In this document: positions 30,569 to 55,296 of the stretch, piece after piece | How positions within the stretch are numbered: the stretch's first letter is position 1 | Layout of the letters: each line of letters begins with the position of its first letter | Source of the DNA: an uncultured Syntrophomonadaceae bacterium | GTDB lineage: Bacteria > Bacillota > Dethiobacteria > DTU022 | Direction: 5' to 3' | Length of the DNA: 64,000 nucleotides | NCBI GenBank assembly: GCA_964436815.1 | Contig: CAYTER010000003.1 | Location: 14,808 to 78,807, forward strand | Position numbers and translations under genes: made by a program | The notes under the pieces: model-generated | The model's database searches: none | Told to the model about the DNA's origin: nothing | What the model saw: only the letters and a program-made list of their open reading frames with translations

Positions 30569-31303
30569 ATGAAAATTAAATCATACCTGGATCAGAAATT
30601 AAATGAAGGAGCAGTTCATGTCACTCTTATTGATCCGGCTCGTCAGGCCCCCGAAGCAGCCGGTAGATTAGCCGAAACAGCCCAGGAAGTGGGCAGTGAC
30701 CTGATTTTTGTCGGTGGCTCTTCCGGGGTTAACCAGAACACGCTATCGGAAACAGCTGAATTTGTTAAGCAGAGATCCTCTTTGCCGGTAATCTTTTTCC
30801 CGACAGGAAGCGACTCGATCAGTTTAAACCTCGATGCTTTTTTATTCCTCAGCCTTCTAAACTCGCGCAATTCGAAGTTTATCAGCGGGACACAGGCCAA
30901 AGTGGCGCCGGTTTTAAAAAGACTTGACGTTGAAGTTCTCTCGGTCGGCTTTATCCTTGTTGAACCGGGGATGAAACTGGGTGAAATCGGTGAGGCTGAT
31001 TTGGTGGCCCGCGATAATTTCTGGCAGGCAATCGGTTATGCCCTTACTGCCCAGTATATGGGGATGTCCTATGTCTACCTGGAAGCAGGTAACGGAGCTG
31101 CGCAACCGGTTCCGGCCGGGATGATCCGGGCTGTCAAAAGAGAGATTAACGTACCTTTGATCGTTGGCGGTGGAATCCGTACCGCCATAGATGCCCGTCG
31201 TGTCAGACAGGCTGGCGCCGATATCGTAGTTACCGGAACGGTTATCGAAACTGCCGGTTACCGCGAACGCTTGCGTTCGATCCTCAGCGCGCTCAAAGAC
31301 TAG
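30569..31303 (+). CDS. pcrB: (Hepta/geranylgeranyl)prenylglyceryl phosphate synthase, PcrB/GGGPS family TIM barrel
   Basis: 244 aa with FVGGSSGV and LIVGGGIRT glycerol-phosphate binding motifs typical of PcrB/GGGPS. Confidence 0.8.
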   Translation: MKIKSYLDQKLNEGAVHVTLIDPARQAPEAAGRLAETAQEVGSDLIFVGGSSGVNQNTLSETAEFVKQRSSLPVIFFPTGSDSISLNLDAFLFLSLLNSRNSKFISGTQAKVAPVLKRLDVEVLSVGFILVEPGMKLGEIGEADLVARDNFWQAIGYALTAQYMGMSYVYLEAGNGAAQPVPAGMIRAVKREINVPLIVGGGIRTAIDARRVRQAGADIVVTGTVIETAGYRERLRSILSALKD

Positions 31304-32217
31304 TGCCTGGCACATTCTCCCCCGCGCCCGCTTACCGTTTCCAGGGCATGATCAATAACCGGGGTTAATACTGCCAGGCATTCAGCTACCGCTTTCGGAC
31401 TACCCGGTAAATTGACGATCAAGGTTTTAGCGCTGATCCCGGCGACCCCCCGGGATAACATCGCCTTCGGGGTCGCTGCCGCAGTTTCCCGGCGTATAGC
31501 CTCGGCTATACCGGGCACCAGGCGATCGACCACCTCTAATGTCGCTTCAGGAGTAACATCACGGGGGCTCATACCGGTGCCGCCAGTTGTAAATACAGCA
31601 TCCAGTTCCTTTTGGACCATGGCTCTCATGGTCGTAGCCAGTTGATTCTTTTCATCGGGAACAATAACGGATTCAACCACATCACCCCATGGTAGCAGGA
31701 TTTCTGCGATTGCCGGACCGCTTAAATCTTCACGCTCACCGCAAGATCCCTTATCACTGGCAGTGATTACGCCGAAGCGGTAAGCAGGTCGGATTTCAAG
31801 CGGGTCGCCAACCTTGACCTTTCCCTCAAGCAATACTTCAGCAAAAATGCCCTCACGCGGCATCACACAATCGCCGGCCTGGTAATAGATTGCACAGCGG
31901 TTGTGGCATTCCTTGCCGATTTGAGTCACCCGTAAAATTGCTTTATTGCCGGCCTGCAGCCGGGTACCTACCGGCAGGCTGACGAGGTCGATACCCCTGG
32001 TGGTCAGGTTTTCAGCAAAATCACCCGGCCCAACATCCAGTCCCTTTTCGATCATCTTTGCAATGCTCTCTTCAGCCAATAGACTGACCTGACGATGGGC
32101 GAAACCGGCATGGGCATCGTTTTCGAGCCCTAAATTCTTTAAAAGCAGCGCTTCGCCTACGTTAGATTTGCGTTCGCCTTTTTTGGCACTGGTGCAAACT
32201 GCGATTATTTCAGCCAT
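31300..32217 (-). CDS. mogA: MOSC domain fused to MogA/MoaB-type molybdopterin adenylyltransferase domain
   Basis: The N-terminal half resembles the MOSC beta-barrel with a conserved Cys (…KECHNRCAIY). The C-terminal half has MogA motifs (GVITASDKGS…TTGGTGMSPRD). Its stop overlaps the pcrB stop (CTAG). Confidence 0.8.
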   Translation of the reverse strand: MAEIIAVCTSAKKGERKSNVGEALLLKNLGLENDAHAGFAHRQVSLLAEESIAKMIEKGLDVGPGDFAENLTTRGIDLVSLPVGTRLQAGNKAILRVTQIGKECHNRCAIYYQAGDCVMPREGIFAEVLLEGKVKVGDPLEIRPAYRFGVITASDKGSCGEREDLSGPAIAEILLPWGDVVESVIVPDEKNQLATTMRAMVQKELDAVFTTGGTGMSPRDVTPEATLEVVDRLVPGIAEAIRRETAAATPKAMLSRGVAGISAKTLIVNLPGSPKAVAECLAVLTPVIDHALETVSGRGGECARH

Positions 32218-33215
32218 TAGATCTGCTCCCGGCGGTAGTGCCCTGAGCGTCCTCCCTTCTTCTCCAGCAACCGTATATTGCCGATAATCATCTTTTTATC
32301 AACTGCTTTGCACATATCGTAAATGGTTAAAGCGGCAACGCTTACTCCGGTCAGCGCTTCCATTTCCACCCCGGTCTGACCGGTTAATTTAACCCGGACC
32401 CCAATCTCAATTTTGGGTTCGGGCTGGTCGATTAGATTAAAATCAACCTCGACCCCGGAAATACCGAGTGGATGAGCCATCGGGATCAGGCGTCCGGTTT
32501 CTTTAACTGCCTGCACAGCCGCTACCTGGGCTACAGCCAGAACATCCCCTTTGGCCATTTGACCGGATCTGATCTTTTGTAGAGTCCCGGCAGTCATCAA
32601 AATTTCACCGCGGGCATAGGCTTCGCGCAAGCTCATTTCTTTCGCCGAAACATCAACCATTCGAGGCCTGCCGGATTGATCAAAGTGAGTTAATTCATTG
32701 TTATGCATGTTATTTCCCCTCCTGTCCGGAAAGAAAAGGCTAATTATTAAGTCAGCCTGGGCTTGTGGGTCGTTTAAGTCAATGATAGGCAGTTCAGACG
32801 GGATATTTTTAAGATCGCTGAATAGCGCCACGGTATTCTCCGGCAAAAGCGGCTGCGTGCTAATCGCACTGCGGACTATTTCAATCTTAGGATTAGCGCT
32901 TTTTTTATGACCCTCGATGACAATCAGGTCCAAGTCGCGAAGCAGACCGGCGGCCTGATCAACCCCGCTGGCCAGTTCAGATTTACCATGCAGCAGAAAT
33001 CCGTTGGGAGTAGTAAAGCCGGCTACTTCGGCACCTGCCTGGGCATAACGCCAGCTGTCCTTACCGGGCAGGTCGAGATCATGATGATGCAGGTTTCCCT
33101 TAAGGGCGGCAACCCGCAGTCCTCTTAGTTTTAGTTCGGGCAGCAGTTTTTCAATCACCGTGGTCTTACCGGTGTCTGATTGAGCGGCCACCAAATTTAT
33201 AACCACCGGGGTCAT
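32217..33215 (-). CDS. moaC: MobB (MGD synthesis GTP-binding protein) fused to MoaC (cyclic pyranopterin monophosphate synthase)
   Basis: The N-terminus has a P-loop SDTGKTT (MobB). The C-terminal ~160 aa match MoaC (…GRPRMVDVSAK…MAHPLGISGVEVDF…ALTIYDMCKA). Confidence 0.82.
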   Translation of the reverse strand: MTPVVINLVAAQSDTGKTTVIEKLLPELKLRGLRVAALKGNLHHHDLDLPGKDSWRYAQAGAEVAGFTTPNGFLLHGKSELASGVDQAAGLLRDLDLIVIEGHKKSANPKIEIVRSAISTQPLLPENTVALFSDLKNIPSELPIIDLNDPQAQADLIISLFFPDRRGNNMHNNELTHFDQSGRPRMVDVSAKEMSLREAYARGEILMTAGTLQKIRSGQMAKGDVLAVAQVAAVQAVKETGRLIPMAHPLGISGVEVDFNLIDQPEPKIEIGVRVKLTGQTGVEMEALTGVSVAALTIYDMCKAVDKKMIIGNIRLLEKKGGRSGHYRREQI

Positions 33216-33219
33216 CTGA

Positions 33220-34215
33220 TTAACCTCCCGTTTTGGACATAGTGCGCATGGCGCCCGGCTTAATGGATCCGCAGGAACCGTCGGCAGCCATCTGATGTTC
33301 GACCGGCTTACCGCTCAAAACCGTTTTGATCAACTCTTTTAAGGCATCGTGGTCGTTGATGACCGGTTTAACCGAATACTCGTCCTGCCAATATAGGCAG
33401 GCTTTCAGGTTACCCTCCGCAGTCAGACGCAGCCGGTTGCATTTATCACAGAAATGCCTGCTAATCGGGTGAATCAGGCCGATGGTTCCTCTGCCGCCTT
33501 TGATCGTATAAGATTCAGCCGGTCCGGCTCCACCGGGAAGCGGAGCGGGAGATAACGGCAATCCGGCATTTAATGCGGTTTCTTCGACAAAAGTGAGGGG
33601 CAGGTAATGGTCAAGGTATTTCTGATCGTGATCGCCAATCGGCATGTATTCAATAAAGCGGACATGCAGCGGTTTTTCTAAGGTCAGCCTGATAAAATCC
33701 ATCACTTCGTTGTCATTTATACCTTTCATCAGGACGATATTGATCTTAACCGGGTGCAATCCAAGGGCGAGAGCTGCTTCAATTCCGGCTAAAACCTGTT
33801 CCAGCTCACCGCAGCGGGTGGTTTGGCGATATACTTCAGGTTTTAAACTGTCCAGGCTGATATTGACGCGATCCAGGCCGGCTTCTTTTAGGGCAGCTGC
33901 CTGCTGAGGCAGTAGAATGCCATTCGTGGTCAGAGCCAGGTCCTTGATTCCGGGGATAGCTTTAATTTTGTCAACCAGGTCGGCTAAATTTTTACGGACT
34001 AAGGGTTCGCCACCGGTCAGGCGTATTTTTGAGATACCGAGCTCCGCTCCTGCCCGGACCACAGCGGTGATTTCCTCATAGCTGAGAATATCCCGATGTG
34101 ATACCTGGGCGATGCCGTCCTCTCCCATGCAGTAAAGACAACGCAGGTTACAGCGGTCAGTAACCGATATCCTTAAATAATCGTGAGTTCTTCCGTGTTG
34201 ATCGATAAGTGTCAT
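33220..34215 (-). CDS. moaA: GTP 3',8-cyclase MoaA (radical SAM)
   Basis: CNLRCLYC radical-SAM motif, plus the C-terminal Cys cluster CDKCNRLRLTAEGNLKAC. Confidence 0.92.
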   Translation of the reverse strand: MTLIDQHGRTHDYLRISVTDRCNLRCLYCMGEDGIAQVSHRDILSYEEITAVVRAGAELGISKIRLTGGEPLVRKNLADLVDKIKAIPGIKDLALTTNGILLPQQAAALKEAGLDRVNISLDSLKPEVYRQTTRCGELEQVLAGIEAALALGLHPVKINIVLMKGINDNEVMDFIRLTLEKPLHVRFIEYMPIGDHDQKYLDHYLPLTFVEETALNAGLPLSPAPLPGGAGPAESYTIKGGRGTIGLIHPISRHFCDKCNRLRLTAEGNLKACLYWQDEYSVKPVINDHDALKELIKTVLSGKPVEHQMAADGSCGSIKPGAMRTMSKTGG

Positions 34216-34225
34216 CGCGGTCTCC

Positions 34226-36139
34226 TTAAACCTTTTCTATTCCGGTTATGGTGCCTGCTTCACGCATACTGTAACCTCCGAGGGCTTCAACCTTGTTTTG
34301 AAATGCCGGATCAGCGATAATCCTGAGCAGCGATGAAGCTTCCGGACTTTTTAAAAAATCATTGTTTAGCAGCAGGTCATACCTTTCTTCGACCAGCGGT
34401 ATAAAATCAAGGTTAAAAGCCCTGGCGGCGGACAGGATGCCAAGACCAGCTGAAGCTGTTCCGGCGGCCACAGCGGCAGCAACATTAAGATGAGTATATT
34501 CTTCCCGTTCATAGCCTTTGATCTGGGCCGGGTTTAAACCTGCTTCTTTCAGAAGGTGATCGAATAGCAGACGCGTACCGGCGCCCCTCTGGCGGTTAAT
34601 GAAACCATTAGTCGTCTGTGCCAGGTCGCTAATCGATTTGATTCCTTCCGGATTTCCTGCCGGGACGATCCAACCCTGCATCCTGTATGCCAGGTTAACC
34701 AGGCTAAGATCATGATCCGGCAACATTTTCCTGATGTACGGGATATTGTAATCACCGGTTTCCGGATCAAAGAGATGGACTCCGGCCAGGTGTGCCTGAC
34801 CCTTGCCAATAGCCATTATCCCTCCCATACTGCCCAGATGAGCTGAAGAAAGATTAAGGCTTGAATCTTCCTGCTTAAGAGCCGTGGCCAGCAAATCGAT
34901 GATCAAATCGTGGCTTCCGGCTGCCAGTAAATTATGGCGCAGTTCGCTTTCCGGTTTGTAGAGCTCAACCTCAACCTCTTCATCTTGCTCATATCCCAGT
35001 GAGTTTTCGGGGATGACCAGCAGGCCATCAGCCCTCACCAGGGACATGGTTACGCCGGCGCCACGGGTCAGCGGATTGGCTAGATAACGGTTATTCACGT
35101 AGCCGATAGTCATCCGTACATGTTCCTCAACTCCCATTTCTGATACAACGCGGCGGCCGAGAGTTACTTTCAGCCGGGGGCGCTCAGGAACAGGCAGGCC
35201 AAGGTAACGGCAGATCAGCGGCAGAGCGAACCACTCAAGACTTAAGTAAGCAGATACAGGGTAACCGGGCAGTCCGATTACCGGTTTGTTCTTAACCCGG
35301 CCAAGGATTGTTGGCTTTCCGGGCCTGGTAGCCACCCCATGTAAAAAAACTTCACCCAATTCCTCAATCACCATTGAGGTATAATCCTTTTCTCCGGCCG
35401 ACGACCCGGCATTTATGATCACAATATCGGCAGAATCCAAGGCGTCCAGCAGGGCCTGCTTTATTTTCTCCGGTTCATCCGGCACTATGGGTTTAACCAG
35501 AGGAACAGCACCCCACTGCTCTAAATAAGCAGCGATTACTGTGCTATTGAAGTCGGGCACCTGCCCGTGCTCTCGCCTGTCACTTGGTCCTATAAGGTCG
35601 GAGCCGCTGGGGATAACTGCAACTACCGGTTTTGCCAGAACCTTTATTTCGGTATCCCCCCCAGCCAGTATAGCGCCAAGATCCGGTGGTTTCAGCAGGT
35701 GACAACCAGGAACAATCAGCTCACCGGCCACAATATCCTCACCCACGGCGCGCACATGCTGCCAGGGAGTGGCCGGAGACAGCAGCTCCGCCCTGCCATC
35801 AGTCAACATGTGCAGGTCTTCTATCTTTGCCACGGCATTGAAACCCGGCGGCAGAGGATTGCCGGTGTTTACTGGTATAAAGCCCTGCTGCGGTTCGAGC
35901 GCCAGCGGATTTTGATCGGATGCGCTGAAAGTATCTTCGGCTTTGACGGCGATACCATCCATGGCAGCAGAATGGAAGGCCGGCATTGATAACCGGGCAA
36001 AAACCGGTTCTGCCGTAACCCGATCCAGAGCTTCACCCACAGGGATAGTTTCCACCCGGCGGGGTATGCCGGTTCTTTCCAGGAAGATCTTTAACGCTTC
36101 TGGTCTCGCTGTGTTACTGAGATAAACTTTGCGCATCAC
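34226..36139 (-). CDS. moeA: Molybdopterin molybdo/tungsto-transferase MoeA fused to a C-terminal periplasmic-binding-protein-like (PBP-like) domain
   Basis: The N-terminal ~400 aa have the MoeA fold (…GLPGYPVSAYLS…). The C-terminal ~230 aa have PBP-like/substrate-binding features (…LAYRMQGWIVPAGNPEGIKSISDL…). Confidence 0.8.
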   Translation of the reverse strand: MMRKVYLSNTARPEALKIFLERTGIPRRVETIPVGEALDRVTAEPVFARLSMPAFHSAAMDGIAVKAEDTFSASDQNPLALEPQQGFIPVNTGNPLPPGFNAVAKIEDLHMLTDGRAELLSPATPWQHVRAVGEDIVAGELIVPGCHLLKPPDLGAILAGGDTEIKVLAKPVVAVIPSGSDLIGPSDRREHGQVPDFNSTVIAAYLEQWGAVPLVKPIVPDEPEKIKQALLDALDSADIVIINAGSSAGEKDYTSMVIEELGEVFLHGVATRPGKPTILGRVKNKPVIGLPGYPVSAYLSLEWFALPLICRYLGLPVPERPRLKVTLGRRVVSEMGVEEHVRMTIGYVNNRYLANPLTRGAGVTMSLVRADGLLVIPENSLGYEQDEEVEVELYKPESELRHNLLAAGSHDLIIDLLATALKQEDSSLNLSSAHLGSMGGIMAIGKGQAHLAGVHLFDPETGDYNIPYIRKMLPDHDLSLVNLAYRMQGWIVPAGNPEGIKSISDLAQTTNGFINRQRGAGTRLLFDHLLKEAGLNPAQIKGYEREEYTHLNVAAAVAAGTASAGLGILSAARAFNLDFIPLVEERYDLLLNNDFLKSPEASSLLRIIADPAFQNKVEALGGYSMREAGTITGIEKV

Positions 36140-36154
36140 AAACCTCCACTATGC

Positions 36155-37387
36155 TTACTCCCATAAATAAACCTCGACAGTCTCCCCGGCGCTTAACCCT
36201 TCCTTCTCCGGGGGCACAACCAGCAGTCCGTCTGCGGCGGCCAGGGTCCGCAGCATCCCTGAACGGCCAAAGACCGGGACTGCGCTAAGTCCTCCGGTGG
36301 ACGGGTCTGGTTCCAGTTTAATCCTTATGTAATCAGTACGCCCGGTCCGGGAAGCCACATTGCGGGCCAGGCTGGCCTTTAAGGTCGGGGTCAGCCTTTT
36401 TTTAAGGCGTCCGGAAAGTTGCTCGATGATCGCCCGTCCGAAAAGGGAAAAGATATTGAGGGCAGAAACCGGATGGCCTGGTAATCCAAGCACAGGTTTC
36501 TCGCCGCATTTTGCGACTAAAGTCGGTTTGCCGGGCTGGATGGCAATGCCTTCGATCAGCAGCCCCGGTTGACCCAGCTCTTGCATGGTGCGGGCAGTAA
36601 AATCGCGGCTGCCGACAGAGCTGCCGCCGGAAAAAACTAAAAAATCAACTTTGACCAATAGTTCACGGCTTTTTGCCAGAAAAACATCAAATTGATCAGG
36701 CAGGATGCCACCATACCTGAAACCAGCCCCGTATTGTTCGGCCAGGTAAAGCAGAGCTGGAGCGTTACTGTCCCTGATTTGCCCGGGCTTAAGTTCCCCT
36801 GATTCGTAAGGAACCAATTCATCGCCACTGGAAAAAAAACCGACCAGCGGCTTCCGGTGAACGGCTACCGCTGACGAACCGATTGAAGCGAGCAGGCCAA
36901 TCTCAGGCGCCCGAAGGAAATGTCCCGCTTCAAATACGACGTCTCCGGCTTTTAAGTCCTCGCCACGGTGAATGACATTTTCACCGGGGGCAACCTGCCG
37001 GTAACTGTTGACAATATTACCGGCCACTTCAGTATCTTCAATCATGATTACAGCATCGGCATTATCTGGCAGCATCCCACCGGTGTGAACCAGGCAGCAT
37101 TGCCCGTCAGAAATGGGAGGAGCGCTTTTGCCCATCAGCACTTCTCCGACCAGTTCAAACATGGCCGGCATACTTTCACTGGCACCGAAAGTTTCGCGGG
37201 CGTTCACAGCATAACCGTCAACTGTTGAGCGGTTAAAACCGGGCACATCTTCCGGTGACCTGATCTTTTCAGCCAGATAGCGCCCTCCGGCCTGTTCAAT
37301 AACAATTATTTCAGCGGGCAGGGCTTTAAACTCACTGGCAATAAGCTTATTAACAGCAACCGGGTCGCTTACCCGCATTAATTTCAT
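36155..37387 (-). CDS. moeA: Molybdopterin molybdotransferase MoeA (second paralog, stand-alone)
   Basis: 410 aa with MoeA domains (…GLPGHPVSALNIF…). It is the first gene of the operon and has a GAGGTG RBS. Confidence 0.88.
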   Translation of the reverse strand: MKLMRVSDPVAVNKLIASEFKALPAEIIVIEQAGGRYLAEKIRSPEDVPGFNRSTVDGYAVNARETFGASESMPAMFELVGEVLMGKSAPPISDGQCCLVHTGGMLPDNADAVIMIEDTEVAGNIVNSYRQVAPGENVIHRGEDLKAGDVVFEAGHFLRAPEIGLLASIGSSAVAVHRKPLVGFFSSGDELVPYESGELKPGQIRDSNAPALLYLAEQYGAGFRYGGILPDQFDVFLAKSRELLVKVDFLVFSGGSSVGSRDFTARTMQELGQPGLLIEGIAIQPGKPTLVAKCGEKPVLGLPGHPVSALNIFSLFGRAIIEQLSGRLKKRLTPTLKASLARNVASRTGRTDYIRIKLEPDPSTGGLSAVPVFGRSGMLRTLAAADGLLVVPPEKEGLSAGETVEVYLWE

Positions 37388-37407
37388 TTTTGCACCTCAC
37401 AGAATAG

Positions 37408-37563
37408 AAAAAGCCGTGCTTCCGTATCAAGGAAAGCATGGCCCTCTAGGCATTATCTCCTTTCCAAGAACGGGAGGCGGGGGGATTTCTCCCCCAACCC
37501 TGGCCTGCCACCGTAGCCGGATTGGGCTGTAGGTGGAAAGGCTCGGAGTTAGTTATTATTGTA
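37408..37563 (-). ncRNA. Candidate Moco/Tuco riboswitch (aptamer ~37450-37560) with terminator-type expression platform (37408-37443) in the 5' leader of the moeA operon
   Basis: A ~175-nt structured leader sits between an extended -10 promoter and moeA. It contains AACUCCGAGCCUUUCC…GGAAAGGAG long-range pairing, a GGGGGA-GAAA-UCCCCC tetraloop hairpin, a CCACC…AGCC-caaucc-GGCU…GGUGG hairpin and a CCUCCC element. It ends with GCCAUGCUUUCC-uugauac-GGAAGCACGGC followed by UUUUU. Its position upstream of Moco biosynthesis genes matches the known Moco RNA motif context. Confidence 0.5.
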
Positions 37564-37570
37564 CGACCTG

Positions 37571-37605
37571 ATTATATCATAATCGCCCGCAGATAACCAT
37601 GATTT
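37571..37605 (-). promoter_or_regulatory. Extended -10 promoter (TGaTATAAT) for the Moco biosynthesis operon
   Basis: The minus strand reads …atggttatctgcgggcgattaTGaTATAATcaggtcg. The -35 is weak (TGGTTA). Confidence 0.45.
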
Positions 37606-37649
37606 GATTATCCGTACCATAGGCCGGATCAAATTATCTGATGCGATCA

Positions 37650-39584
37650 TCAAAGCAAATTGTAATAAAAAAGCAGCCAAACGATGATTAGTGAACCGGC
37701 TGTGATTAACGAATAGTGCAGCCGGCCGCTTACGTTCCAGTACTTCTTATACCAGCTTAGAACGGTTAAGATGACCATCAGCCCGGAGGCAATTGTAATC
37801 AGCAGGGGCAGGATCATCAGGGAGTTAAAAGCCTCTGTCTCGCCGAAGAAGATTTGAGGCACGCCGAAAGCCGGGTTGATGTCACCCATGACTCTTAAAA
37901 AGCCCAGAACAAAGCTCAAGGAAAGAACACCACAGCTAACAGCAACCAGGCGGGCGAAAAGGGAAAGGATCGGTGCTTTGAACCCTTCACGCCTGAAGAT
38001 GCGACCTATCGAGGAGATTAGCCAGCCAACGGCAGCCGAAAGCAGCAGAATTAAAGCTATTCCCAGCAATACCCCTGTCGCAGCGCTGGTTCCATACCAG
38101 GGTGCTTTGATAAATGGCATTGGCCCTGCCGGGCTCATCAGGATACGTCCGTCTTCCTGCTGAACAAATACAACTACCTTTGAAAATCTTGTGCCGGAAG
38201 TCTCACGATTGTGAAACACACCGGGATCAACCTCGGCAAACTGCATGGTCATGCCATATAAATTTACAACCAGATAACCTTCGTCATTTAAAGTCACCCT
38301 GGCAGTCTGCAAGAGAGAAAGCATTTTTTCCATGGTTGAATAATTAGTGCGAGCCGGCAGGTATTCACCGATTAGCTGCATTAGCGCTTCCCGCCGATTT
38401 TCAAGCGGTTTTGGTTCCGGAGGTTGTTTTTCCGGATAATAGCGGTCCATAAAAAGTTGAACCAGGTTAGCCCACTCGGTCCCTAATCCTCCGTTATAGG
38501 AGACAAAGATCCCCAGGTCGAGTTCGGGAATCAGGTACAATCCGGTATTGAAAAGCAGGGTATTACCGCTGTGGCCGATTGCCCGATAACCGTTAAAGGT
38601 CTCTTCGATAAAACCGTGGGCCATCCCGATCTGGGCTGGATGGTGAGTAAAAAGGCGGCTGTGCATTGTTTCAGCGGTTTGCTTCTGTAAAATCAGGTTA
38701 TCACCGTAACGCCCGTCATTAAGGTGAGCAATCATAAACTTGGCCATATCTTCAGCCGTGCTGCTCATACTGCCGGCCGGCAGGGCAGATATGTACTCAA
38801 AGCTACCCTGATAATAGCGGCCTCCCTGGTAACCGTAGCCTTCAGCCATTCTTCCGGTAAGGGCTGCAGGCAGCGGTTGGATGACTGTGCTGTTTTTCAT
38901 ATCCAGGGGAGCGAAAATATTGATCTCAACGTATTCAGCAAATGGCAGCCCGGATACCCGCTGGACAATATAACCGGCTAAAGCTGCCCCATAATTGGAA
39001 TAGGCCATGATCGTTCCCGGCTCATAAATCCGGGCCGGGATGTTATGCTTCAAGTATTCTTCAAGTGTAACCACCTGGTCTGGTTCGAGTACAAATAGGC
39101 CTTCCCCCTGATCTTCGAACCCCGGTGTATGGGTCAGCAGGTGCGCCAGGGTTACCGGTTCGGCTTGGGTGCCCCGGGGAGAGTTGATCAGTCCGGTGGG
39201 AATTTCAAAATCGATGTAGCTGTTTACATCCGCATTCAGGTCAAGTTTTCCTGCTTCAACCAACTGCATTACTGCAGTCCAGGTAATTAATTTTGCCGTT
39301 GAACCGATCCGGAAAAGGGTCTGTCGCGGGTCGACCGGAATCTGTTTTTCCAAATCAGCGTATCCGTAACCTTTAAGCAGGATTATATCTTCTCCCTGGA
39401 CTACAGAGAGAGTCACACCGGGGATGTGTTGTTCATCCATCTGGGTTTTTATCACGCCATCGAGATAAGCTTCGAGCAACAGCGGATCAAGTTTCTCAGT
39501 TTCTGCGGCAATGGCGTTGCTGCCTGGTACGGCACAAAATAAGATAATCATGATTAACATGATTGATTTAAAAAGATTCTTCAT
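37650..39584 (-). CDS. Serine hydrolase (beta-lactamase/class C-like) with N-terminal signal peptide and C-terminal 4-TM membrane domain
   Basis: S-x-x-K motif in RIGSTAKL, a YxN-like region and a ~350-aa beta-lactamase fold. The C-terminal ~150 aa contain four hydrophobic helices. Confidence 0.8.
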   Translation of the reverse strand: MKNLFKSIMLIMIILFCAVPGSNAIAAETEKLDPLLLEAYLDGVIKTQMDEQHIPGVTLSVVQGEDIILLKGYGYADLEKQIPVDPRQTLFRIGSTAKLITWTAVMQLVEAGKLDLNADVNSYIDFEIPTGLINSPRGTQAEPVTLAHLLTHTPGFEDQGEGLFVLEPDQVVTLEEYLKHNIPARIYEPGTIMAYSNYGAALAGYIVQRVSGLPFAEYVEINIFAPLDMKNSTVIQPLPAALTGRMAEGYGYQGGRYYQGSFEYISALPAGSMSSTAEDMAKFMIAHLNDGRYGDNLILQKQTAETMHSRLFTHHPAQIGMAHGFIEETFNGYRAIGHSGNTLLFNTGLYLIPELDLGIFVSYNGGLGTEWANLVQLFMDRYYPEKQPPEPKPLENRREALMQLIGEYLPARTNYSTMEKMLSLLQTARVTLNDEGYLVVNLYGMTMQFAEVDPGVFHNRETSGTRFSKVVVFVQQEDGRILMSPAGPMPFIKAPWYGTSAATGVLLGIALILLLSAAVGWLISSIGRIFRREGFKAPILSLFARLVAVSCGVLSLSFVLGFLRVMGDINPAFGVPQIFFGETEAFNSLMILPLLITIASGLMVILTVLSWYKKYWNVSGRLHYSLITAGSLIIVWLLFYYNLL

Positions 39585-43593: not shown

Positions 43594-43887
43594 TCAGGAT
43601 ATGATCATTTTAAAAATATAAATTACAAATAATACTGTCAATAAACTGCTGAAAATTCTTAACTTCTGAGCAAAATTGCTCTTTACCTCCGATGTGTTTC
43701 GTTTAGAGGGAACAGCCTGAAATTTATAGATATTTAAAGGTTTATAGCTTTTATTTGGTGTTCCTTTTGAAAATAGTTCTTCAAAAGCGCTCGTATCAAC
43801 TTCAGGCCGGCGAACTTCAATGCCAAAAAGCTCCAAATCATCTAATGTTTGATGCTGGTCTTCTGAAACCTTTTTACTGCAATCCAT
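43594..43887 (-). CDS. Small hypothetical protein with C-terminal transmembrane tail anchor
   Basis: 97 aa with a GGAGGG RBS. The hydrophilic N-terminal ~75 aa are followed by a hydrophobic C-terminal helix (LLTVLFVIYIFKMII). No recognised family. Confidence 0.45.
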   Translation of the reverse strand: MDCSKKVSEDQHQTLDDLELFGIEVRRPEVDTSAFEELFSKGTPNKSYKPLNIYKFQAVPSKRNTSEVKSNFAQKLRIFSSLLTVLFVIYIFKMIIS

Positions 43888-44490
43888 CAAAAAAGGCCCT
43901 CCTTCCGGGGGACCGACAAAGAAAAATTTATAAACTGTCTCGGTAGCCAGGCTGCCGTAGCTTTTTTAGCTTTAGGTCCTTGGCTTTGCGTCCCTGCCTT
44001 TAAACAGGTTTGCCTTTGTCGGTCAGGTGTGTTGTTGTCATGAATCCTAGGAGTAGCTCTTAACACCTAATAATTTCTCCGTAACCACCGTCCTTATATC
44101 TCAGTTTTTAAGCTTTATATTTATCATAGCGATATTTGACATAATGTCAAGGACATTTTTGTTTTATGTTTAAAAATTTAATAGTATCTTTCAGGGATGT
44201 TTATTGTTGATCCGGTCATAGTGCAGAATTATTAAGGGGATCAACAGGTTAATATTGAAGCTCCGATAATAGTTGAATTAAAACAAGCTGTGGAAAAAGA
44301 ACTAAACCATCTGTAAAATTAGAATCTGCTTATTGGGATAAAAGATATATAGAATATCACGTTATATAAAGATCCGGACAATTTAACGCGAAAGACTTTG
44401 AAGGGTCTGAAATGAAAGATAGCGGTGTTAGGCAGATGTGATGTGCTCTTTCCTGCAATTGCTAGACGAGATCCCGATAAATCAATATAA

Positions 44491-44519: not shown

Positions 44520-44562
44520 TTATCTTGTAATGACAGGATAACAACATGAAGGGATGAATTTA

Positions 44563-45390
44563 ATGGAAGGCAAAAATAGTAGCAGATATATCGACAAAAA
44601 TAGTGTTATTCCATATTATTACCAGCTAAAAGAACAATTAAAATCATTTTTTGAAGAAAACAATATGAAAGAAGGTGAGCAGATACAGTCAGAAGCTGAG
44701 TTGTGCAGGACTTATGGTGTAAGTCGGACTGTGGTGAGACAGGCAATTGCTGATCTGGTTAATGAGGGTTTGCTTTTCCGTCAGAAGGGTAAAGGAACTT
44801 TTATTGCAAAACCAAAAATTATTGGTAGTCTAATGCAAAATTTGAATGGTTTTTATAAAGATATGATGGTTAAAGAATTCAAAACAAAATCTGAAATCCT
44901 TGATTTTTCTATAGTTGCTGCACCAAAGAAGATCGCCTACAGACTCCAGCGTGAAGAGGGAGAGAAATTATTTAAAATTGACCGACTTCGCTTTGTCAAC
45001 GATGAACCAATTGTTTGTGTTATATCTTACATCCCCTTTAGTCTCTGCCCCGAACTAATTAATGAAGACCTAACCAATCAATCACTCTACGCAGTAATGG
45101 AGGAAAAGTATAATTTAAAAATTGCTTCTAGCCGCCGATCGATTGAAGCAGTTGGGGCGACTGAGGAAATCGCTGCCCTTCTGGGCATTGAACACTGCGC
45201 ACCAATATTTTTACTCAAAAGTATTAGTTATCTGGAAAACGGAATGCCGGTTGAATATTACGAAGCAAAGCACCGGGGTGATCGAATGGGTTTCGAAGTT
45301 GAAATAATTAATCAAAAAAAATCAAACCATCTCGACAGTGTTGATCTGAGTTTTCAAGTAATGAACCTTTCAGGACACAAGCAAGTATAG
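44563..45390 (+). CDS. GntR-family transcriptional regulator, HutC subfamily (UTRA effector domain)
   Basis: N-terminal wHTH (…LCRTYGVSRTVVRQAIADLVNEGLL…) and a C-terminal UTRA-like domain. Start at ATG 44563 (SD AAGGGA 9 nt upstream); ATG 44554 is an alternative. Confidence 0.85.
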   Translation: MEGKNSSRYIDKNSVIPYYYQLKEQLKSFFEENNMKEGEQIQSEAELCRTYGVSRTVVRQAIADLVNEGLLFRQKGKGTFIAKPKIIGSLMQNLNGFYKDMMVKEFKTKSEILDFSIVAAPKKIAYRLQREEGEKLFKIDRLRFVNDEPIVCVISYIPFSLCPELINEDLTNQSLYAVMEEKYNLKIASSRRSIEAVGATEEIAALLGIEHCAPIFLLKSISYLENGMPVEYYEAKHRGDRMGFEVEIINQKKSNHLDSVDLSFQVMNLSGHKQV

Positions 45391-45510
45391 ATAGTAGCAC
45401 CAAGCTGGTATCGCAAAGGGGGTGCTCGATGAATTAGTGATGGGTAGATAAGAGTTTAAGAACAACTAAGTTAGTTGGGCAGTAAGTATCATAAAGAGGA
45501 GGAGAATAGT

Positions 45511-46680
45511 GTGAAAAGAAAGTGCAATATTTTAATGCTGATTTTTGTTGTTATGATATCCGGGTTTCTGGTAATCGGCTGTGCGCCGAGTACCCCTGCC
45601 GAACCACCGGCAGAGGATGGTGAGTTAGTTTTAGAGAAAATAGTTATTGGCTGGACTCCCCCCGACATAACAGGGGTGTTCCAGACTGCAACTGAGTACT
45701 TCGAGCTGGCTGCTGAAGATGCCGGTAAAAGTGGTATTGAGGTTGAGGTGATTTCACGCTCCCCAGCTACCCACGTTGCTTTTGCCGACCAGGTAGCCAT
45801 TATTGAAGATTACATTACCATGGGTGTTGATGTAATCGCTATTTCGCCCACTGAGGTAGAAGTAGTCAAACCAGCGCTCCAGCAGGCTAACGCTGCGGGG
45901 ATCCCTATTATTATGGTTAACCTGTTAGAGCCAATTGATGGCGTGGATATCGCCTGTTATATCGGGTTCGACAACTTTGATGGCGCAGCCATCACAGCCT
46001 ATTCATTAGTAGATTACTTCGGTGGTCCCGGGGTCTTAGGTGAGGGTGATAAAGTTGACGCGACACCTGAAACTTATCTTGACCTGGCCTGGTGGGAAGA
46101 TGTTTATGCCGGTGTTGATCCTGCAGCATCGGGTATCGAAGCGCGCGGTGCGATTATTGAAGGCGTAGCTGGAGGCTTTTTCTCCGTTACCCGTGTGGAA
46201 GGCTTCCGCTCAGTAATCGACGAGTACCCGGGTATAGTTGAAGTAATGGAGCCAATTCCAGCTGACTGGAACAGAGAAAAAGGTATTGCAGCTGCAGAAG
46301 ATATCCTGGCAGCCAACCCTGAAGGAACCCTGGACTGGATCTGGGCAGCCTCTAATGAAATGGGTATGGGAGCCAGGCTTGCCTGTGAATCTGCAGGCAG
46401 GACCGAAGTTGCAGTATTTACAAATGACGTAACACCAGAATCAGTTCTTGAATTTATCAATAAAGATCGCATAGTGGCAGAAACAACTCACGGCTTTCCT
46501 GATTGGGGATGGTTTGGAACGAAGTATGCTGTAATGTTGGCACTTGGGTTGGATGTACCGCAATTTGAAGACATTCGCCCACGTACTGCTTACAAAGATA
46601 ACAGCTTCATGTTCTACCCAGAACCTGTATTACCACCAATTGATTGGGATGAAATTTTGGTCAATGCAGGTTTGAAGTAA
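45511..46680 (+). CDS. Sugar ABC transporter substrate-binding lipoprotein (CUT2/RbsB-like type I PBP)
   Basis: GTG start with AAGAGGAGGAG RBS and a VIGC lipobox. Periplasmic sugar-binding fold, about 390 aa. Confidence 0.82.
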   Translation: MKRKCNILMLIFVVMISGFLVIGCAPSTPAEPPAEDGELVLEKIVIGWTPPDITGVFQTATEYFELAAEDAGKSGIEVEVISRSPATHVAFADQVAIIEDYITMGVDVIAISPTEVEVVKPALQQANAAGIPIIMVNLLEPIDGVDIACYIGFDNFDGAAITAYSLVDYFGGPGVLGEGDKVDATPETYLDLAWWEDVYAGVDPAASGIEARGAIIEGVAGGFFSVTRVEGFRSVIDEYPGIVEVMEPIPADWNREKGIAAAEDILAANPEGTLDWIWAASNEMGMGARLACESAGRTEVAVFTNDVTPESVLEFINKDRIVAETTHGFPDWGWFGTKYAVMLALGLDVPQFEDIRPRTAYKDNSFMFYPEPVLPPIDWDEILVNAGLK

Positions 46681-46891
46681 CCAACGGTAAGGGGGGGGGA
46701 TAATCTACCCCCCTCCCTTACACTACCTGCCACTCAGCTTGATAGCTGAGTTTAGCAGCATACACATGTTTATTGTACATCAAATTTATTATCTTAAAAA
46801 GACCATCATAAAAACACATGCTATTACATAATGTTATAGTAACAGCCTTGCAGTTCACATATCAGCAAGTTTGTGCAAAGGAGAGTCGGGT

Positions 46892-48397
46892 ATGGTTCAA
46901 ACACCGCTACTCGAGCTGAAGGGTTTAAATAAAAGCTATCCTGGTGTTCAGGCTTTAAAGGGAGTTGATTTCGATCTACATTCCGGTGAAGTGCACTTTT
47001 TGCTTGGTGAAAATGGAGCCGGAAAGTCTACATTGCTGAAAATTCTAAGTGGTTCAGTACAAAAAGACAGCGGTACAATTCTGCTTGAAGGAGTTCCAAT
47101 CGAGATTAACAACCCGGCTGATTCGCGACATCATAAGATTGCCATGGTTTATCAAGAACTGAGTTTACTACCATCTCTTACAGCAGCAGAAAATATATTC
47201 CTGGGTGAGCTTCCCCTAAAGAGATGGAGTAAAACTGTTGATTGGAAAAAAGTTTACAACGAAACAGAGGCCGCATTAAAAACAGTCGGATTAAATATAA
47301 CGCCACAGAAATTGGTTAATGAACTTTCTGTTGGCGAGAAACAACTGGTGGAGATAGCCAAAGCAATGTCACGAAAAGCTCGGATTCTGCTTCTTGACGA
47401 ACCGACTTCTGCGTTGACAGGAGAAGAATCTGACAAGCTTTTTACTCTGATAAAAGAGTTACAGGCAAAAGGTATTGCCATCCTCTATATCTCCCATCGC
47501 TTGGCTGAATTGCCCAAAATAGCTCAGCGGGTTACTGTTCTCCGCGATGGCGAAAAGATGGGGACCTTTCCTGTAGACGATGTTGAAGAAAAAGATCTGA
47601 TCAGAATGATGGTGGGTCGGGAAATTGAAGAAAAATATCCAAAAGAAAAAATTGCAATCGGAGAGCCTCTGCTGGAGGTAATCAACCTTAACCTGAAAAA
47701 CCGTATCAAGGGTTTAAACCTGACGGTGAGAAATGGAGAAATTGTCGGTGTTTTCGGGTTAATGGGTGCAGGAAGAACCTCACTGGCCAATGTTCTCTTT
47801 GGTATTGAAAAACCGGACAGTGGGCTAGTCAAAGTTAACGGCAGTAATGTTAGCATTAATAACCCCTGGGATGCAATTCGTGCTGGTTTTGGGTATATCA
47901 CGGAAGATCGGCGCGGCAGTTTAGCTCCGCGTATGAGCATAGCGGCAAATATAACCCTGCCCAATCTCAAGCGCCTTTTATTGTGGGGTTTCCTGAGCTT
48001 ATTTAAAGAAAAGCTCCTGGTTCAGAACTTTGTAGACGAGTTGAAGATCGCCACACCGAACTTGCAGCAGCTCTGTGAGTTTCTTAGCGGGGGTAATCAG
48101 CAAAAGGTAGTGCTGGCACGCTGGATTTGTGCGAATTCAAAGATTTTGTTATTGGATGAGCCGACAAGAGGTATAGATGTTGGCTCAAAAGTTGAAGTAT
48201 ACCGCTTAATGGGTCGGTTAGCGAAAGAGAATGCGGCTATATTGATGTTCAGTTCAGAGCTTCCTGAAGTAATGGCTGTCAGCGATCGCATACTGGTAAT
48301 GTGTGAAGGAGAAATTGCTGCATCTTTCAATCAAAATGAGACAACCCCGGATGAAATCATGTTGTATGCAACGGGACGGAGGAAAGCGTGTGGATAA
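46892..48397 (+). CDS. Sugar ABC transporter ATP-binding protein with duplicated ABC domains (RbsA/MglA/XylG-like)
   Basis: Two nucleotide-binding domains (GENGAGKST; LSGGNQQK; LDEPT). Start at ATG 46892 with AAAGGAGAG RBS. Confidence 0.88.
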   Translation: MVQTPLLELKGLNKSYPGVQALKGVDFDLHSGEVHFLLGENGAGKSTLLKILSGSVQKDSGTILLEGVPIEINNPADSRHHKIAMVYQELSLLPSLTAAENIFLGELPLKRWSKTVDWKKVYNETEAALKTVGLNITPQKLVNELSVGEKQLVEIAKAMSRKARILLLDEPTSALTGEESDKLFTLIKELQAKGIAILYISHRLAELPKIAQRVTVLRDGEKMGTFPVDDVEEKDLIRMMVGREIEEKYPKEKIAIGEPLLEVINLNLKNRIKGLNLTVRNGEIVGVFGLMGAGRTSLANVLFGIEKPDSGLVKVNGSNVSINNPWDAIRAGFGYITEDRRGSLAPRMSIAANITLPNLKRLLLWGFLSLFKEKLLVQNFVDELKIATPNLQQLCEFLSGGNQQKVVLARWICANSKILLLDEPTRGIDVGSKVEVYRLMGRLAKENAAILMFSSELPEVMAVSDRILVMCEGEIAASFNQNETTPDEIMLYATGRRKACG

Positions 48398-49436
48398 TAA
48401 TAAAATAGCTCAAGTAACTGCTCTACAGGAAAAGTTGAAAGTAAAGCTAACTGCCTCAGACTATTTGCGAAAAGCAGTAGCCATGGGTGGCCCGGTTATT
48501 GCTCTAGCGTTGCTGATGACCTATTTTAGTATAGCTTCGCCTTTCTTTGCCACCAGCGGAAATATCATCAATATTACCCGTCAATCTTCCATAAATATAA
48601 TGTTAGCTACCGGTCAGAGTTTAGTGATTCTATCAGGTGGTATCGATCTTTCGGTCGGAGCGATAATGGCGCTGGCTGCTTCTGTTTCAACTGTTGCCAT
48701 GACCTATCATGGTATCAATGTTTGGCTGGGTATGCTGCTTAGTCTGGGTGTAGGATCTTTTGCCGGTTTCATAAACGGGTTGGTTATAGCCAAAGGTAAG
48801 GTGCCTGACTTTATCGCCACCCTTGGTATGATGACCGTAGCACGAGGAGTGGCCTTGCTTGTCACCGGTGGCCTTCCTGTTCCGTCGCATCGGATTGCCC
48901 ATGAAGTTGTAGCTCACATCCCCGATCAATTGTTATGGCTTGGCGGAGGCAAACTTTTTGGTATACCAACCGCACTGCTGGCAGCTATTGGGATTGTTCT
49001 TTTAGGCTGGTTCATCACCCGTTATACAAGATTGGGACGTTCATTATATGCAGTAGGCGGAAACAAAGAAGCAGCCCGAGTATCCGGAATAAACATTGAA
49101 CGCACCAAAATAGCCGTCTATACCATATCCGGGGCTTTTGCCGGAATAGCAGCTTTAGTCCTGACGGGACGTATGAACTCCGCCAATGCACTAATGGGTG
49201 AAGGAGCAGAGCTGCAGTCTATTGCAGCTGTGGTTATCGGTGGTTCTAATCTATACGGTGGTGAAGGCGGTGTCGGAGGCACCCTAGTCGGAGCGCTTAT
49301 TATGGGTGTTCTGAATAATGGTTTGAACCTGATTAATGTTTCTGCATTCTGGCAGAGAGTTATTCTGGGTTCAGTACTGATCACTGTAGTAATCTTTGAT
49401 CAATGGCGTCGCCGGCGTCTTTCGGTTACACACTAG
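48390..49436 (+). CDS. Sugar ABC transporter permease (RbsC/XylH-like, BPD type-2)
   Basis: GTG start that overlaps the ATPase stop, with CGGAGG RBS. About 10 TM helices. Confidence 0.85.
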   Translation: MDNNKIAQVTALQEKLKVKLTASDYLRKAVAMGGPVIALALLMTYFSIASPFFATSGNIINITRQSSINIMLATGQSLVILSGGIDLSVGAIMALAASVSTVAMTYHGINVWLGMLLSLGVGSFAGFINGLVIAKGKVPDFIATLGMMTVARGVALLVTGGLPVPSHRIAHEVVAHIPDQLLWLGGGKLFGIPTALLAAIGIVLLGWFITRYTRLGRSLYAVGGNKEAARVSGINIERTKIAVYTISGAFAGIAALVLTGRMNSANALMGEGAELQSIAAVVIGGSNLYGGEGGVGGTLVGALIMGVLNNGLNLINVSAFWQRVILGSVLITVVIFDQWRRRRLSVTH

Positions 49437-49488
49437 CAAGGGTAAGCGACATTTGACAGCAAAGCTATTATTCCAGGGAGGTTCGGTA

Positions 49489-50250: not shown

Positions 50251-50292
50251 CCATCATCATATTCAGTTCACATCAGGCTGGAGGGTTTGTGT

Positions 50293-51165: not shown

Positions 51166-51188
51166 AATAAAAGGTTAGGAGGATTTTC

Positions 51189-53266: not shown

Positions 53267-53268
53267 GA

Positions 53269-55279: not shown

Positions 55280-55296
55280 ATGAAGGAATAGAAAAA

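What the first reader, a model, noticed from the sequence alone, without database searches (positions are those of the whole stretch)
37388..37605. Candidate Moco/Tuco riboswitch with intrinsic-terminator expression platform upstream of the moeA-moeA/PBP-moaA-mobB/moaC-MOSC/mogA operon
An extended -10 promoter (TGaTATAAT) on the minus strand is followed by a ~175-nt leader with nested GC-rich helices. These include AACUCCGAGCCUUUCC pairing with GGAAAGGAG, a GAAA-tetraloop hairpin and a CCACC/GGUGG hairpin. The leader ends in a terminator hairpin plus U5 just before the moeA RBS. Leaders of molybdopterin biosynthesis operons in many bacteria carry the Moco RNA motif. Organisms that use tungsten AOR carry the Tuco variant.
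Basis: partly seen in the sequence, partly recalled or inferred. Interest (0 to 1): 0.6.

Follow-up and report, generated by a model that had tools for sequence, protein, structure and literature searches.

The report
Moco/tungsten-cofactor riboswitch before moeA operon
The leader in front of this molybdopterin-cofactor biosynthesis operon is a clear, conserved example of the already-described Moco RNA riboswitch, in its P3-lacking form proposed to sense the tungsten cofactor, and it most likely shuts the operon off by premature transcription termination; it is an ordinary member of a known class.

Summary
The finding is confirmed. Rfam RF01055 (Moco RNA motif) matches window 37441-37560 (-) end to end at 76.8 bits (gathering score 36, E 8e-17). 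The P3 hairpin is cleanly absent, which is the form Regulski et al. 2008 proposed as a tungsten-cofactor (Tuco) sensor. An extended -10 promoter (TGATATAAT, 37579-37571) lies 22 nt upstream of P1. A terminator hairpin with U5 (37443-37408) lies 10 nt before the RBS of moeA. The same P3-less RNA with a terminator precedes the same five-gene operon in 11 of 12 related Bacillota/Syntrophomonadaceae loci. Across 12 sequences the aptamer has 9 base pairs with compensatory changes, and 0 of 500 shuffles reach that. An alternative GGAAAG:CUUUCC pairing between the aptamer core and the terminator's 5' arm gives a plausible anti-terminator. The two folds lie within about 4 kcal/mol in the five leaders computed. 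The operon encodes a MoeA plus PBP-fused MoeA pair recently proposed to be tungsten-specific, and an AOR-family gene lies 14 kb away. Both fit tungsten, but ligand identity cannot be tested here and has never been shown biochemically. Verdict: new member of a known kind, low interest.

The parts
37571..37579 (-). Extended -10 promoter TGATATAAT (TG 37579-37578, TATAAT 37576-37571). No good -35 hexamer. The predicted transcription start near 37564-37562 is inferred.
   Evidence: Sequence. TGnTATAAT is conserved in 11 of 12 homologous leaders, 20-29 nt upstream of the P1 CUCC. The consensus promoter scan did not list it because the -35 is weak.
37441..37560 (-). Moco RNA motif aptamer (RF01055), P3-lacking form. 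P1 is 37550-37545 with 37460-37455. P2 is 37542-37532 with 37512-37503, and its distal hairpin is 37528-37515. The P3 site is only the dinucleotide CA at 37502-37501. P4 is 37500-37475 with a GAAA loop at 37489-37486. P5 is 37474-37464. The conserved junction plus 3' P1, GGAAAGGAGAU, is 37465-37455.
   Evidence: 76.8 bits, E 8e-17, model positions 1-135, with the 16 model positions that make up P3 and one adjoining junction base deleted. Unconstrained MFE of 120-145-nt transcripts reproduces the same topology. In 12 sequences 91.1% of cells are paired and 9 pairs have compensatory changes, with 0 of 500 shuffles as high.
37511..37533 (-). Tetraloop-receptor-like internal loop in P2 (CCUACA ... 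CUACGG), a presumed docking site for the P4 GAAA loop.
   Evidence: Regulski 2008 describes a GNRA tetraloop on P4 and a receptor centred in a P2 bulge. The Rfam consensus is cCUAag...uAuGg. The window has CCUACA...UACGG, and the relatives have UAUGG, UACGG or AAUGG. Docking itself is inferred.
37408..37443 (-). Intrinsic terminator: 5' arm GGCCAUGCUUUCC at 37443-37431, loop 37430-37424, 3' arm GGAAGCACGGCU at 37423-37412, U5 at 37412-37408.
   Evidence: Terminator scan. Fold energy is -16.5 kcal/mol for the 39-nt segment. A hairpin is present in 12 of 12 leaders at -11 to -24 kcal/mol, though the U-tract is interrupted in three of them (L008, L009, L011). Across the 12, 94.4% of cells are paired and 3 pairs have compensatory changes.
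37431..37465 (-). Candidate anti-terminator: GGAAAG (37465-37460: 3' half of P5, junction, first base of 3' P1) pairing with CUUUCC (37436-37431: terminator 5' arm).
   Evidence: This pairing is the MFE for 150-168-nt transcripts of the window and for transcripts ending just after the terminator's 5' arm in all 5 leaders tested. The P1+terminator fold and the anti-terminator fold lie within about 4 kcal/mol in all 5. In 12 sequences 95.8% of cells are paired, but the 5' strand is invariant so no covariation is possible. It is compatible with the data, not proven.
37385..37398 (-). RBS GAGGUG (37398-37393) and ATG (37387-37385) of the first moeA.
31300..37387 (-). Regulated operon: MoeA (36155-37387); MoeA fused to a PBP_like domain (34226-36139); MoaA (33220-34215); MobB+MoaC (32217-33215); MOSC+MoCF_biosynth, MogA/MoaB-like (31300-32217).
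   Evidence: Pfam and NCBIfam. The same gene order is found in L002 and L008-L016, with MobB not detected in L011 and L015.

Best explanation
This is a transcriptional OFF riboswitch of the Moco RNA motif family (RF01055), in the P3-lacking form. Transcription starts about 7-9 nt after an extended -10 promoter, almost exactly at the 5' end of the aptamer. When the pterin-based metal cofactor is abundant it binds the four-helix junction (P1, P2, P4, P5, with the P4 GAAA loop docked on the P2 receptor) and locks P1 and the GGAAAGGAG junction. The downstream CUUUCC segment is then free to pair with GGAAGC. This completes a terminator hairpin followed by U5, and RNA polymerase stops 10 nt before the moeA RBS. 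When the cofactor is scarce, GGAAAG of the unliganded aptamer pairs with CUUUCC as an anti-terminator. The terminator cannot form, and the five-gene operon is transcribed (two MoeA insertases, one of them PBP-fused, plus MoaA, MobB-MoaC and MOSC-MogA-like). Family membership, conservation, covarying aptamer helices, the terminator and the gene context are shown. The direction of control is inferred from architecture and from the E. coli precedent. The anti-terminator is inferred because it is compatible but cannot covary. Ligand identity is also inferred. I judge the tungsten form (Tuco) somewhat more likely than Moco, about 55:45, because P3 is absent, the operon carries the PBP-MoeA proposed to be W-specific, and an AOR-family enzyme is encoded nearby.
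For: RF01055 matches at 76.8 bits against a gathering score of 36, E 8e-17, full length with P3 deleted. The same RNA scores 62-77 bits upstream of the orthologous moeA in 11 of 12 related loci, and all are P3-less. Aptamer covariation in 12 sequences gives 9 compensatory pairs and 17 cells, with 0 of 500 shuffles as high; 91% of cells are paired against 34-64% when partners are slid. The terminator is found by scan, is present in 12 of 12 leaders, and is 94% paired with 3 compensatory pairs. Growing-transcript folding gives the Rfam topology first and then the GGAAAG:CUUUCC alternative. The two states are near-isoenergetic in 5 of 5 leaders. The operon is cofactor biosynthesis. Regulski 2008 shows that the E. 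coli member represses in response to Moco, that terminator platforms exist, that 58 of 176 members lack P3, and that these correlate with Tuco metabolism and MPT-biosynthesis genes. Megrian 2025 proposes PBP-fused MoeA as tungsten-specific and reports that it co-occurs with TupA. An AOR-family gene lies at 51189-53009.
Against: There is no experimental evidence for this instance. Direct binding of Tuco, or even Moco, to any member of the family was not found in the literature searched, and the Tuco assignment rests on gene-content correlation only. Deleting P3 from the E. coli RNA abolished regulation rather than switching specificity. The anti-terminator has no covariation support, and slid controls for it reach 79% because the strand is U-rich. 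The 11 related loci belong to one clade (PBP-MoeA 65-83% identical), so they are not independent evidence for a link between P3 absence and tungsten. AOR-family enzymes are not strictly tungsten enzymes (my own knowledge: E. coli YdhV is reported to bind Mo). No tungstate transporter is present in the 64-kb window.
Confidence: 0.85

Rival explanations
1. The RNA and the termination mechanism are the same, but the ligand is Moco, or a metal-independent feature of the pterin cofactor so that both Moco and Tuco are sensed. On this view P3 absence is a lineage trait and not a specificity determinant.
For: Tuco specificity of P3-less RNAs has never been shown. The 2008 paper itself lists exceptions: P3-less RNAs upstream of a molybdate transporter and of putative Moco enzymes, and 2 of 19 organisms without Tuco genes. 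The regulated genes make MPT and insert metal, steps shared by both cofactors. The operon has two MoeA paralogues, so it may serve both metals.
Against: The 2008 paper reports near-perfect segregation of P3-less RNAs with Tuco-related gene content, in 17 of 19 organisms. The operon contains the PBP-MoeA type that co-occurs with TupA. An AOR-family gene is present in the window.
Confidence: 0.4
2. Control is mainly translational. The anti-Shine-Dalgarno-like CCUCC of the aptamer (P4 3' strand and P5, about 37479-37474) pairs with the moeA RBS GAGGUG (37398-37393) in full-length mRNA, and the hairpin with U5 is only a minor pause or attenuation site.
For: The full-length MFE pairs GCCUCC... with ...GAGGUG across the terminator. 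Many Moco RNAs, including E. coli moaA, act on the RBS.
Against: In that MFE the aptamer's P1, P4 and P5 are disrupted, so the pairing is not obviously ligand-promoted. A canonical terminator hairpin is conserved in 12 of 12 leaders. In L010 and L012 the RBS lies about 170 nt beyond the terminator, so a fixed aptamer-RBS pairing is not conserved.
Confidence: 0.08
3. The element is a decayed or non-regulatory relic, or a leader bound by a protein, and only resembles the Moco motif.
For: One related locus, L013, has a leader whose 5' half has diverged so that it scores only 14.1 bits (E 1.1). Decay therefore does occur in this clade.
Against: The window copy scores 76.8 bits with every conserved junction nucleotide intact. 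Compensatory changes maintain its helices across relatives. Promoter, terminator and spacing are all conserved.
Confidence: 0.03

Closest known systems
P3-lacking Moco RNA motif representatives ('Tuco' class) of Clostridia such as Syntrophomonas wolfei, Moorella thermoacetica and Desulfitobacterium hafniense (Regulski et al. 2008, PMC2408646; Rfam RF01055)
   Same: The P1-P2-P4-P5 architecture is the same, with no P3, a GAAA loop on P4 and a receptor-like bulge in P2. The conserved junction (CUCCGAGCC ... CCUCCCG ... UGGAAAGGAG) is the same. It is located upstream of MPT/cofactor biosynthesis genes, is followed by an intrinsic terminator, and occurs in the same bacterial family, since the nearest relatives are Syntrophomonadaceae MAGs.
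   Different: It is a single copy rather than the tandem or triple arrangement described for one S. wolfei operon. This operon composition (MoeA, PBP-MoeA, MoaA, MobB-MoaC, MOSC-MogA) is not described in the sections of the 2008 paper that I read; I did not read its Table 1 or supplementary figures. The source is an uncultured organism not among the GTDB species representatives searched, where the best MoeA match is 80%.
Escherichia coli moaABCDE Moco riboswitch (149 moaA RNA)
   Same: It belongs to the same Rfam family and has the same conserved junction. It is an OFF switch for cofactor biosynthesis genes in response to the end-product cofactor.
   Different: The E. coli RNA has P3, and its RBS is embedded in the 3' strand of P1, so control is translational. 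It does not respond to tungstate or Tuco. It is additionally controlled by FNR, ModE and, from my own knowledge, CsrA. The window RNA lacks P3 and uses a terminator.

Membership tests
Moco RNA motif (Rfam RF01055) | Covariance-model score at or above the curated gathering score over the full model | tested here: met
   76.8 bits against 36, E 8e-17, model positions 1-135, not truncated.
Moco RNA motif (Rfam RF01055) | P1, P2, P4 and P5 helices around a highly conserved multistem junction, maintained by covariation | tested here: met
   In 12 homologous leaders 91.1% of cells are paired and 9 pairs carry compensatory changes, with 0 of 500 shuffles as high; slid controls give 34-64%. The junction nucleotides are invariant.
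Moco RNA motif (Rfam RF01055) | GAAA (GNRA) tetraloop closing P4 | tested here: met
   GAGAAAUC at 37491-37484, with the GAAA loop at 37489-37486, invariant in 12 of 12.
Moco RNA motif (Rfam RF01055) | Tetraloop receptor centred in a P2 bulge | tested here: inconclusive
   An internal loop is present at the right position, but it reads CCUACA/CUACGG rather than the consensus CCUAAG/UAUGG. Relatives vary (UAUGG, UACGG, AAUGG). Docking cannot be tested with these tools.
Moco RNA motif (Rfam RF01055) | Located in the 5' leader of genes for Moco/Tuco biosynthesis, molybdate/tungstate transport or cofactor-dependent enzymes, followed by an expression platform | tested here: met
   The aptamer ends 53 nt upstream of moeA. 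The operon is MoeA, MoeA-PBP, MoaA, MobB-MoaC, MOSC-MogA-like. A terminator with U5 lies between the aptamer and the RBS.
Moco RNA motif (Rfam RF01055) | Gene control responds to cofactor production | not testable with these tools
   This needs reporter or transcription assays. It has been shown only for E. coli moaA.
P3-lacking ('Tuco') subclass of the Moco motif (Regulski 2008) | Absence of the P3 stem between P2 and P4 | tested here: met
   P2 (…CAGGC) is joined to P4 (GGGUUGG…) by CA only. Sixteen model positions, P3 plus one junction base, are deleted. The same GGCC[A/U]GGG junction is found in all 12 leaders.
P3-lacking ('Tuco') subclass of the Moco motif (Regulski 2008) | Host carries genes indicative of tungsten-cofactor metabolism | tested here: inconclusive
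   An AOR-family gene (AFOR_N 227 bits, AFOR_C 382 bits) lies at 51189-53009, and a PBP-fused MoeA of the type proposed to be W-specific is in the operon. No tungstate transporter is in the window, the rest of the genome is unseen, and the metal of this AOR is unknown.
P3-lacking ('Tuco') subclass of the Moco motif (Regulski 2008) | Associated with MPT-biosynthesis genes or Tuco-dependent enzyme genes | tested here: met
   MoaA and MoaC (cPMP synthesis), a MogA/MoaB-like protein and MoeA lie downstream.
P3-lacking ('Tuco') subclass of the Moco motif (Regulski 2008) | Selective response to Tuco and not Moco | not testable with these tools
   I found no report of this for any member. A 2022 review cites only the 2008 correlation.

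The most novel reading that the evidence does not exclude
The P3-less aptamer is a true tungsten-cofactor-specific sensor that gates a tungsten-dedicated maturation operon, built around the PBP-fused MoeA. This compact single-copy leader with a clean terminator would then be a good model for the first biochemical demonstration of Tuco sensing by RNA and of how an RNA tells W from Mo in otherwise identical cofactors.
Probability: 0.5. Interest if true: 0.5.

Novelty: new member of a known kind. Interest (0 to 1): 0.2.

Why it matters
As an annotation it explains how this syntroph-like Bacillota organism feedback-controls its pterin-cofactor pathway. It also adds a conserved set of 12 sequences, with promoter, aptamer and terminator defined, to a family whose tungsten-sensing subclass is still supported only by gene-content correlation. 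The one modestly useful new point is the link between the P3-less RNA and an operon headed by the MoeA/PBP-MoeA pair that a 2025 study proposed to be tungsten-specific. Two independent bioinformatic hypotheses about tungsten therefore converge on one locus that could be tested with a simple termination assay. It does not change what is known about riboswitches.

Tried and rejected
Only P1 (ACUCC:GGAG) holds, and the CUUUCC part belongs to covariation-supported P2 and is not conserved in relatives.
(2) A sigma-70 -35/-10 consensus scan did not find the promoter. It was accepted instead on conservation of the extended -10.
(3) A PDB sequence search with the PBP-like domain, meant to identify its oxyanion-binding relatives, returned only designed Kelch-like repeat proteins matching a short stretch and was uninformative.
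(4) An exact-sequence look-up of the window's MoeA found nothing. The PBP-MoeA has a 100% identical match on an ENA metagenome contig, so the source is an uncultured organism.
(5) With only the 5 closest leaders, covariation was too weak to say anything. Sampling homologues at 65-83% identity solved this for the aptamer and partly for the terminator.
(6) I used 'PBP-MoeA operons carry P3-less RNAs' as a hoped-for independent test of the tungsten link. The sampled loci all belong to one clade, so the 11-of-12 association is not phylogenetically independent, and I do not count it as evidence for ligand identity.
(7) I looked for a second Moco RNA in the window, for example before the AOR gene, and found none even at E<=1.
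(8) A literature search for direct Tuco or Moco binding studies found none in the held library.

Full report
OBSERVATION. On the minus strand the intergenic region between a beta-lactamase-family gene (37650-39584) and the first moeA (36155-37387) reads as follows. There is an extended -10 promoter, TGATATAAT (TG 37579-37578, TATAAT 37576-37571). A leader of about 177 nt follows. Then come a hairpin plus UUUUU (37443-37408), the RBS GAGGUG (37398-37393) and the ATG (37387).

IDENTITY. A scan of the whole window against Rfam 15 gives a full-length match to RF01055, the Moco RNA motif, at 37441-37560 (-). It scores 76.8 bits against a gathering score of 36, with E 8e-17. It is the only Moco-motif match in the window, even at E<=1. 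The alignment shows P1, P2 (with its internal loop and distal hairpin), P4 closed by GAAA, P5 and the conserved junction CUCCGAGCC / CCUCCCG / UGGAAAGGAG. The 16 model positions that make up P3 and one junction base are deleted, so P2 and P4 are joined by CA only (37502-37501). Unconstrained folding of 120-145-nt nascent transcripts reproduces the same topology without any constraint.

CONSERVATION AND COVARIATION. The nearest MoeA relatives in a species-representative genome collection are uncultured Syntrophomonadaceae MAGs at 80% and 75% identity. Two more relatives come from metagenomes. Homologues of the PBP-fused MoeA at 65-83% identity are numerous in Bacillota MAGs, and eight of their genomic contexts show the same five-gene operon.
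- RF01055 is found directly upstream of the first moeA in 11 of the 12 related loci, at 62-77 bits.
- All of these copies are about 120 nt long and have the junction GGCC[A/U]GGG, so none has P3.
- The twelfth locus, L013, has a leader whose 5' half has diverged and scores 14.1 bits, E 1.1.
- In a 12-sequence MAFFT alignment (A2) the aptamer helices are 91.1% paired. Nine pairs show changes on both sides (17 cells), and 0 of 500 shuffles reach that. Slid controls give 34-64%.
- With only the five closest sequences the signal was too weak to judge.
- TGnTATAAT is conserved in 11 of 12 leaders, 20-29 nt upstream of the P1 CUCC. This places the transcription start almost at the 5' end of the aptamer.

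EXPRESSION PLATFORM. The terminator-like hairpin, found independently by the pattern scan, folds at -16.5 kcal/mol in the window. A hairpin followed by a U-rich tail is present in 12 of 12 leaders at -11 to -24 kcal/mol, although the U-tract is interrupted in L008, L009 and L011. Its arms are 94.4% paired with three compensatory pairs, against 46-60% for slid controls.

The 5' arm contains CUUUCC (37436-37431). This is complementary both to GGAAGC of the 3' arm and to GGAAAG (37465-37460), which spans the 3' half of P5, the A-rich junction and the first base of the 3' strand of P1. For transcripts of 150-168 nt the MFE switches from the aptamer fold to this GGAAAG:CUUUCC pairing. In all five leaders examined, transcripts ending just after the terminator's 5' arm adopt it. 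In those five leaders the 'P1 + terminator' and 'anti-terminator' folds differ by no more than about 4 kcal/mol. Across 12 sequences the pairing is 95.8% maintained. Because GGAAAG is invariant aptamer core there can be no covariation, and slid controls reach 79%. The anti-terminator is therefore a well-fitting inference, not a demonstrated structure.

MECHANISM. The architecture is that of a transcriptional OFF switch. Ligand binding stabilises P1 and the junction, which leaves CUUUCC free to complete the terminator. Without ligand the anti-terminator forms and the operon is read through. The direction of control matches the E. coli moaA member, which represses in response to Moco production, and terminator platforms were already noted for the family. 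An alternative translational layer, with aptamer CCUCC pairing to the RBS as seen in the full-length MFE, is unlikely to be primary. It is not obviously ligand-promoted, and the distance from aptamer to RBS is not conserved: L010 and L012 have about 170 extra nt.

WHICH LIGAND. Regulski et al. 2008 found that 58 of 176 Moco RNAs lack P3. These segregate almost perfectly with tungsten-cofactor gene content (17 of 19 organisms). They lie upstream of MPT-biosynthesis or Tuco-enzyme genes. The authors proposed that these RNAs sense Tuco. They also noted exceptions, and found that deleting P3 from the E. coli RNA simply kills regulation. S. wolfei, from the same family as the relatives found here, has at least 15 copies.

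The window's RNA meets the structural criterion and the gene-association criterion. Two further observations fit tungsten. First, the operon begins with a contiguous MoeA plus PBP-fused MoeA pair. Megrian et al. 2025 describe this arrangement in some anaerobic bacteria, report that it co-occurs with the tungstate-specific TupA, and propose it to be W-specific. A 2026 study shows genetically that MoeA paralogues can be metal-dedicated. Second, an AOR-family gene lies at 51189-53009.

Against over-reading these points:
- No direct Tuco-binding or tungstate-response experiment for any P3-less RNA was found, and a 2022 review still cites only the 2008 paper.
- The related loci form one clade, so they are not independent evidence.
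- No tungstate transporter is in the window.
- AOR-family enzymes are not exclusively tungsten enzymes (my own knowledge).
I put Tuco against Moco, or both, at roughly 55:45.

One helix was mis-assigned. AACUCCGAGCCUUUCC does not pair as a block with GGAAAGGAG. Only ACUCC:GGAG is P1, and GCCUUUCC is the 5' strand of P2. The CUUUCC that matters for switching is the one in the terminator, not the one in P2.

NOVELTY AND SCORE. The family, the P3-less subclass, terminator platforms and occurrence in Syntrophomonadaceae are all published, and the element is found by the standard Rfam model at twice its threshold. This copy comes from an uncultured organism: a 100% PBP-MoeA match lies on an ENA metagenome contig, and the best match among GTDB species representatives is 80%. 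It is therefore a new member of a known kind. The only mildly new point is the convergence of the P3-less RNA with the PBP-MoeA operon. Interest is 0.2.

Noticed in passing
window 43939-44024 (-): There is a strong c-di-GMP-I riboswitch (RF01051, 78 bits against a gathering score of 35). The only downstream minus-strand ORF is a 98-aa protein (43594-43890, TTG start) with a hydrophobic C-terminus, and I did not search any family for it. What this riboswitch controls is unclear.
   Followed up: partly
window 44554-62872 (+), AOR at 51189-53009: The AOR-family gene sits inside a GntR/UTRA-regulated sugar or sugar-acid cluster. The cluster has a sugar-binding protein, ABC ATPase, permease, SDR, two xylose-isomerase-like TIM barrels, a 2-hydroxyacid dehydrogenase, GFO/IDH/MocA, a Zn-ADH, an FGGY kinase, a KDPG/KHG aldolase, a cupin-type GPI and a DAK2 protein. 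This suggests a semi- or non-phosphorylative Entner-Doudoroff-like route in which AOR oxidises the aldehyde released by the aldolase, which would be unusual for a bacterium.
   Followed up: no
window 34226-37387 (-): The operon starts with a contiguous MoeA plus MoeA-PBP_like pair. The second protein matches NCBIfam NF011068 at 726 bits against a cutoff of 534. This is the arrangement Megrian et al. 2025 interpret as an archaeal-type, possibly horizontally acquired, tungsten-specific insertase pair. In this clade it is under P3-less riboswitch control.
   Followed up: partly
L013 3536-3673 (+): One related operon has a divergent leader. The 3' half (P4-like stem, CCUCCCGUGCUUGGAAAG and the terminator) is retained. 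The P1 3' strand is GAAG, with a possible CUUC partner upstream. The GAAA loop and the P2 region are not recognisable, and RF01055 scores only 14.1 bits (E 1.1). It is either a decaying copy or a variant outside the current model.
   Followed up: partly
L009, L010, L011, L013, L014 at about 1700-3560 (+), immediately upstream of the riboswitch: In five of the eight relatives sampled through the PBP-MoeA search, a pair of half-size Chromate_transp (ChrA-like) genes lies just upstream of the riboswitch-moeA operon. It is preceded by a MarR-family regulator in four of the five, and L012 has the MarR gene alone. Chromate, molybdate and tungstate are all tetrahedral oxyanions, so this could be a metal-oxyanion transporter linked to the pathway. 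It is absent from the window, where a beta-lactamase-family gene occupies that position.
   Followed up: no
L010 3530-3703 and L012 3500-3664 (+): In two relatives about 170 nt of extra sequence lies between the riboswitch terminator and the moeA start codon. No Rfam family matches it at gathering score. Its function is unknown.
   Followed up: no
window 10325-10404 (+): An S10-Clostridia ribosomal-protein leader (RF03136) scores 35.5 bits, just above its gathering score of 35.1. It lies at the head of the large ribosomal-protein cluster that fills window 1-29400.
   Followed up: no
window about 37597-37633 (-): There is an imperfect inverted repeat (AUUUGAUCCG ... CGGAUAAUCAAAU) just upstream of the -35 region of the moeA promoter. 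It has no U-tract and is not conserved in relatives. It could be a weak terminator remnant of the upstream gene or an operator.
   Followed up: no
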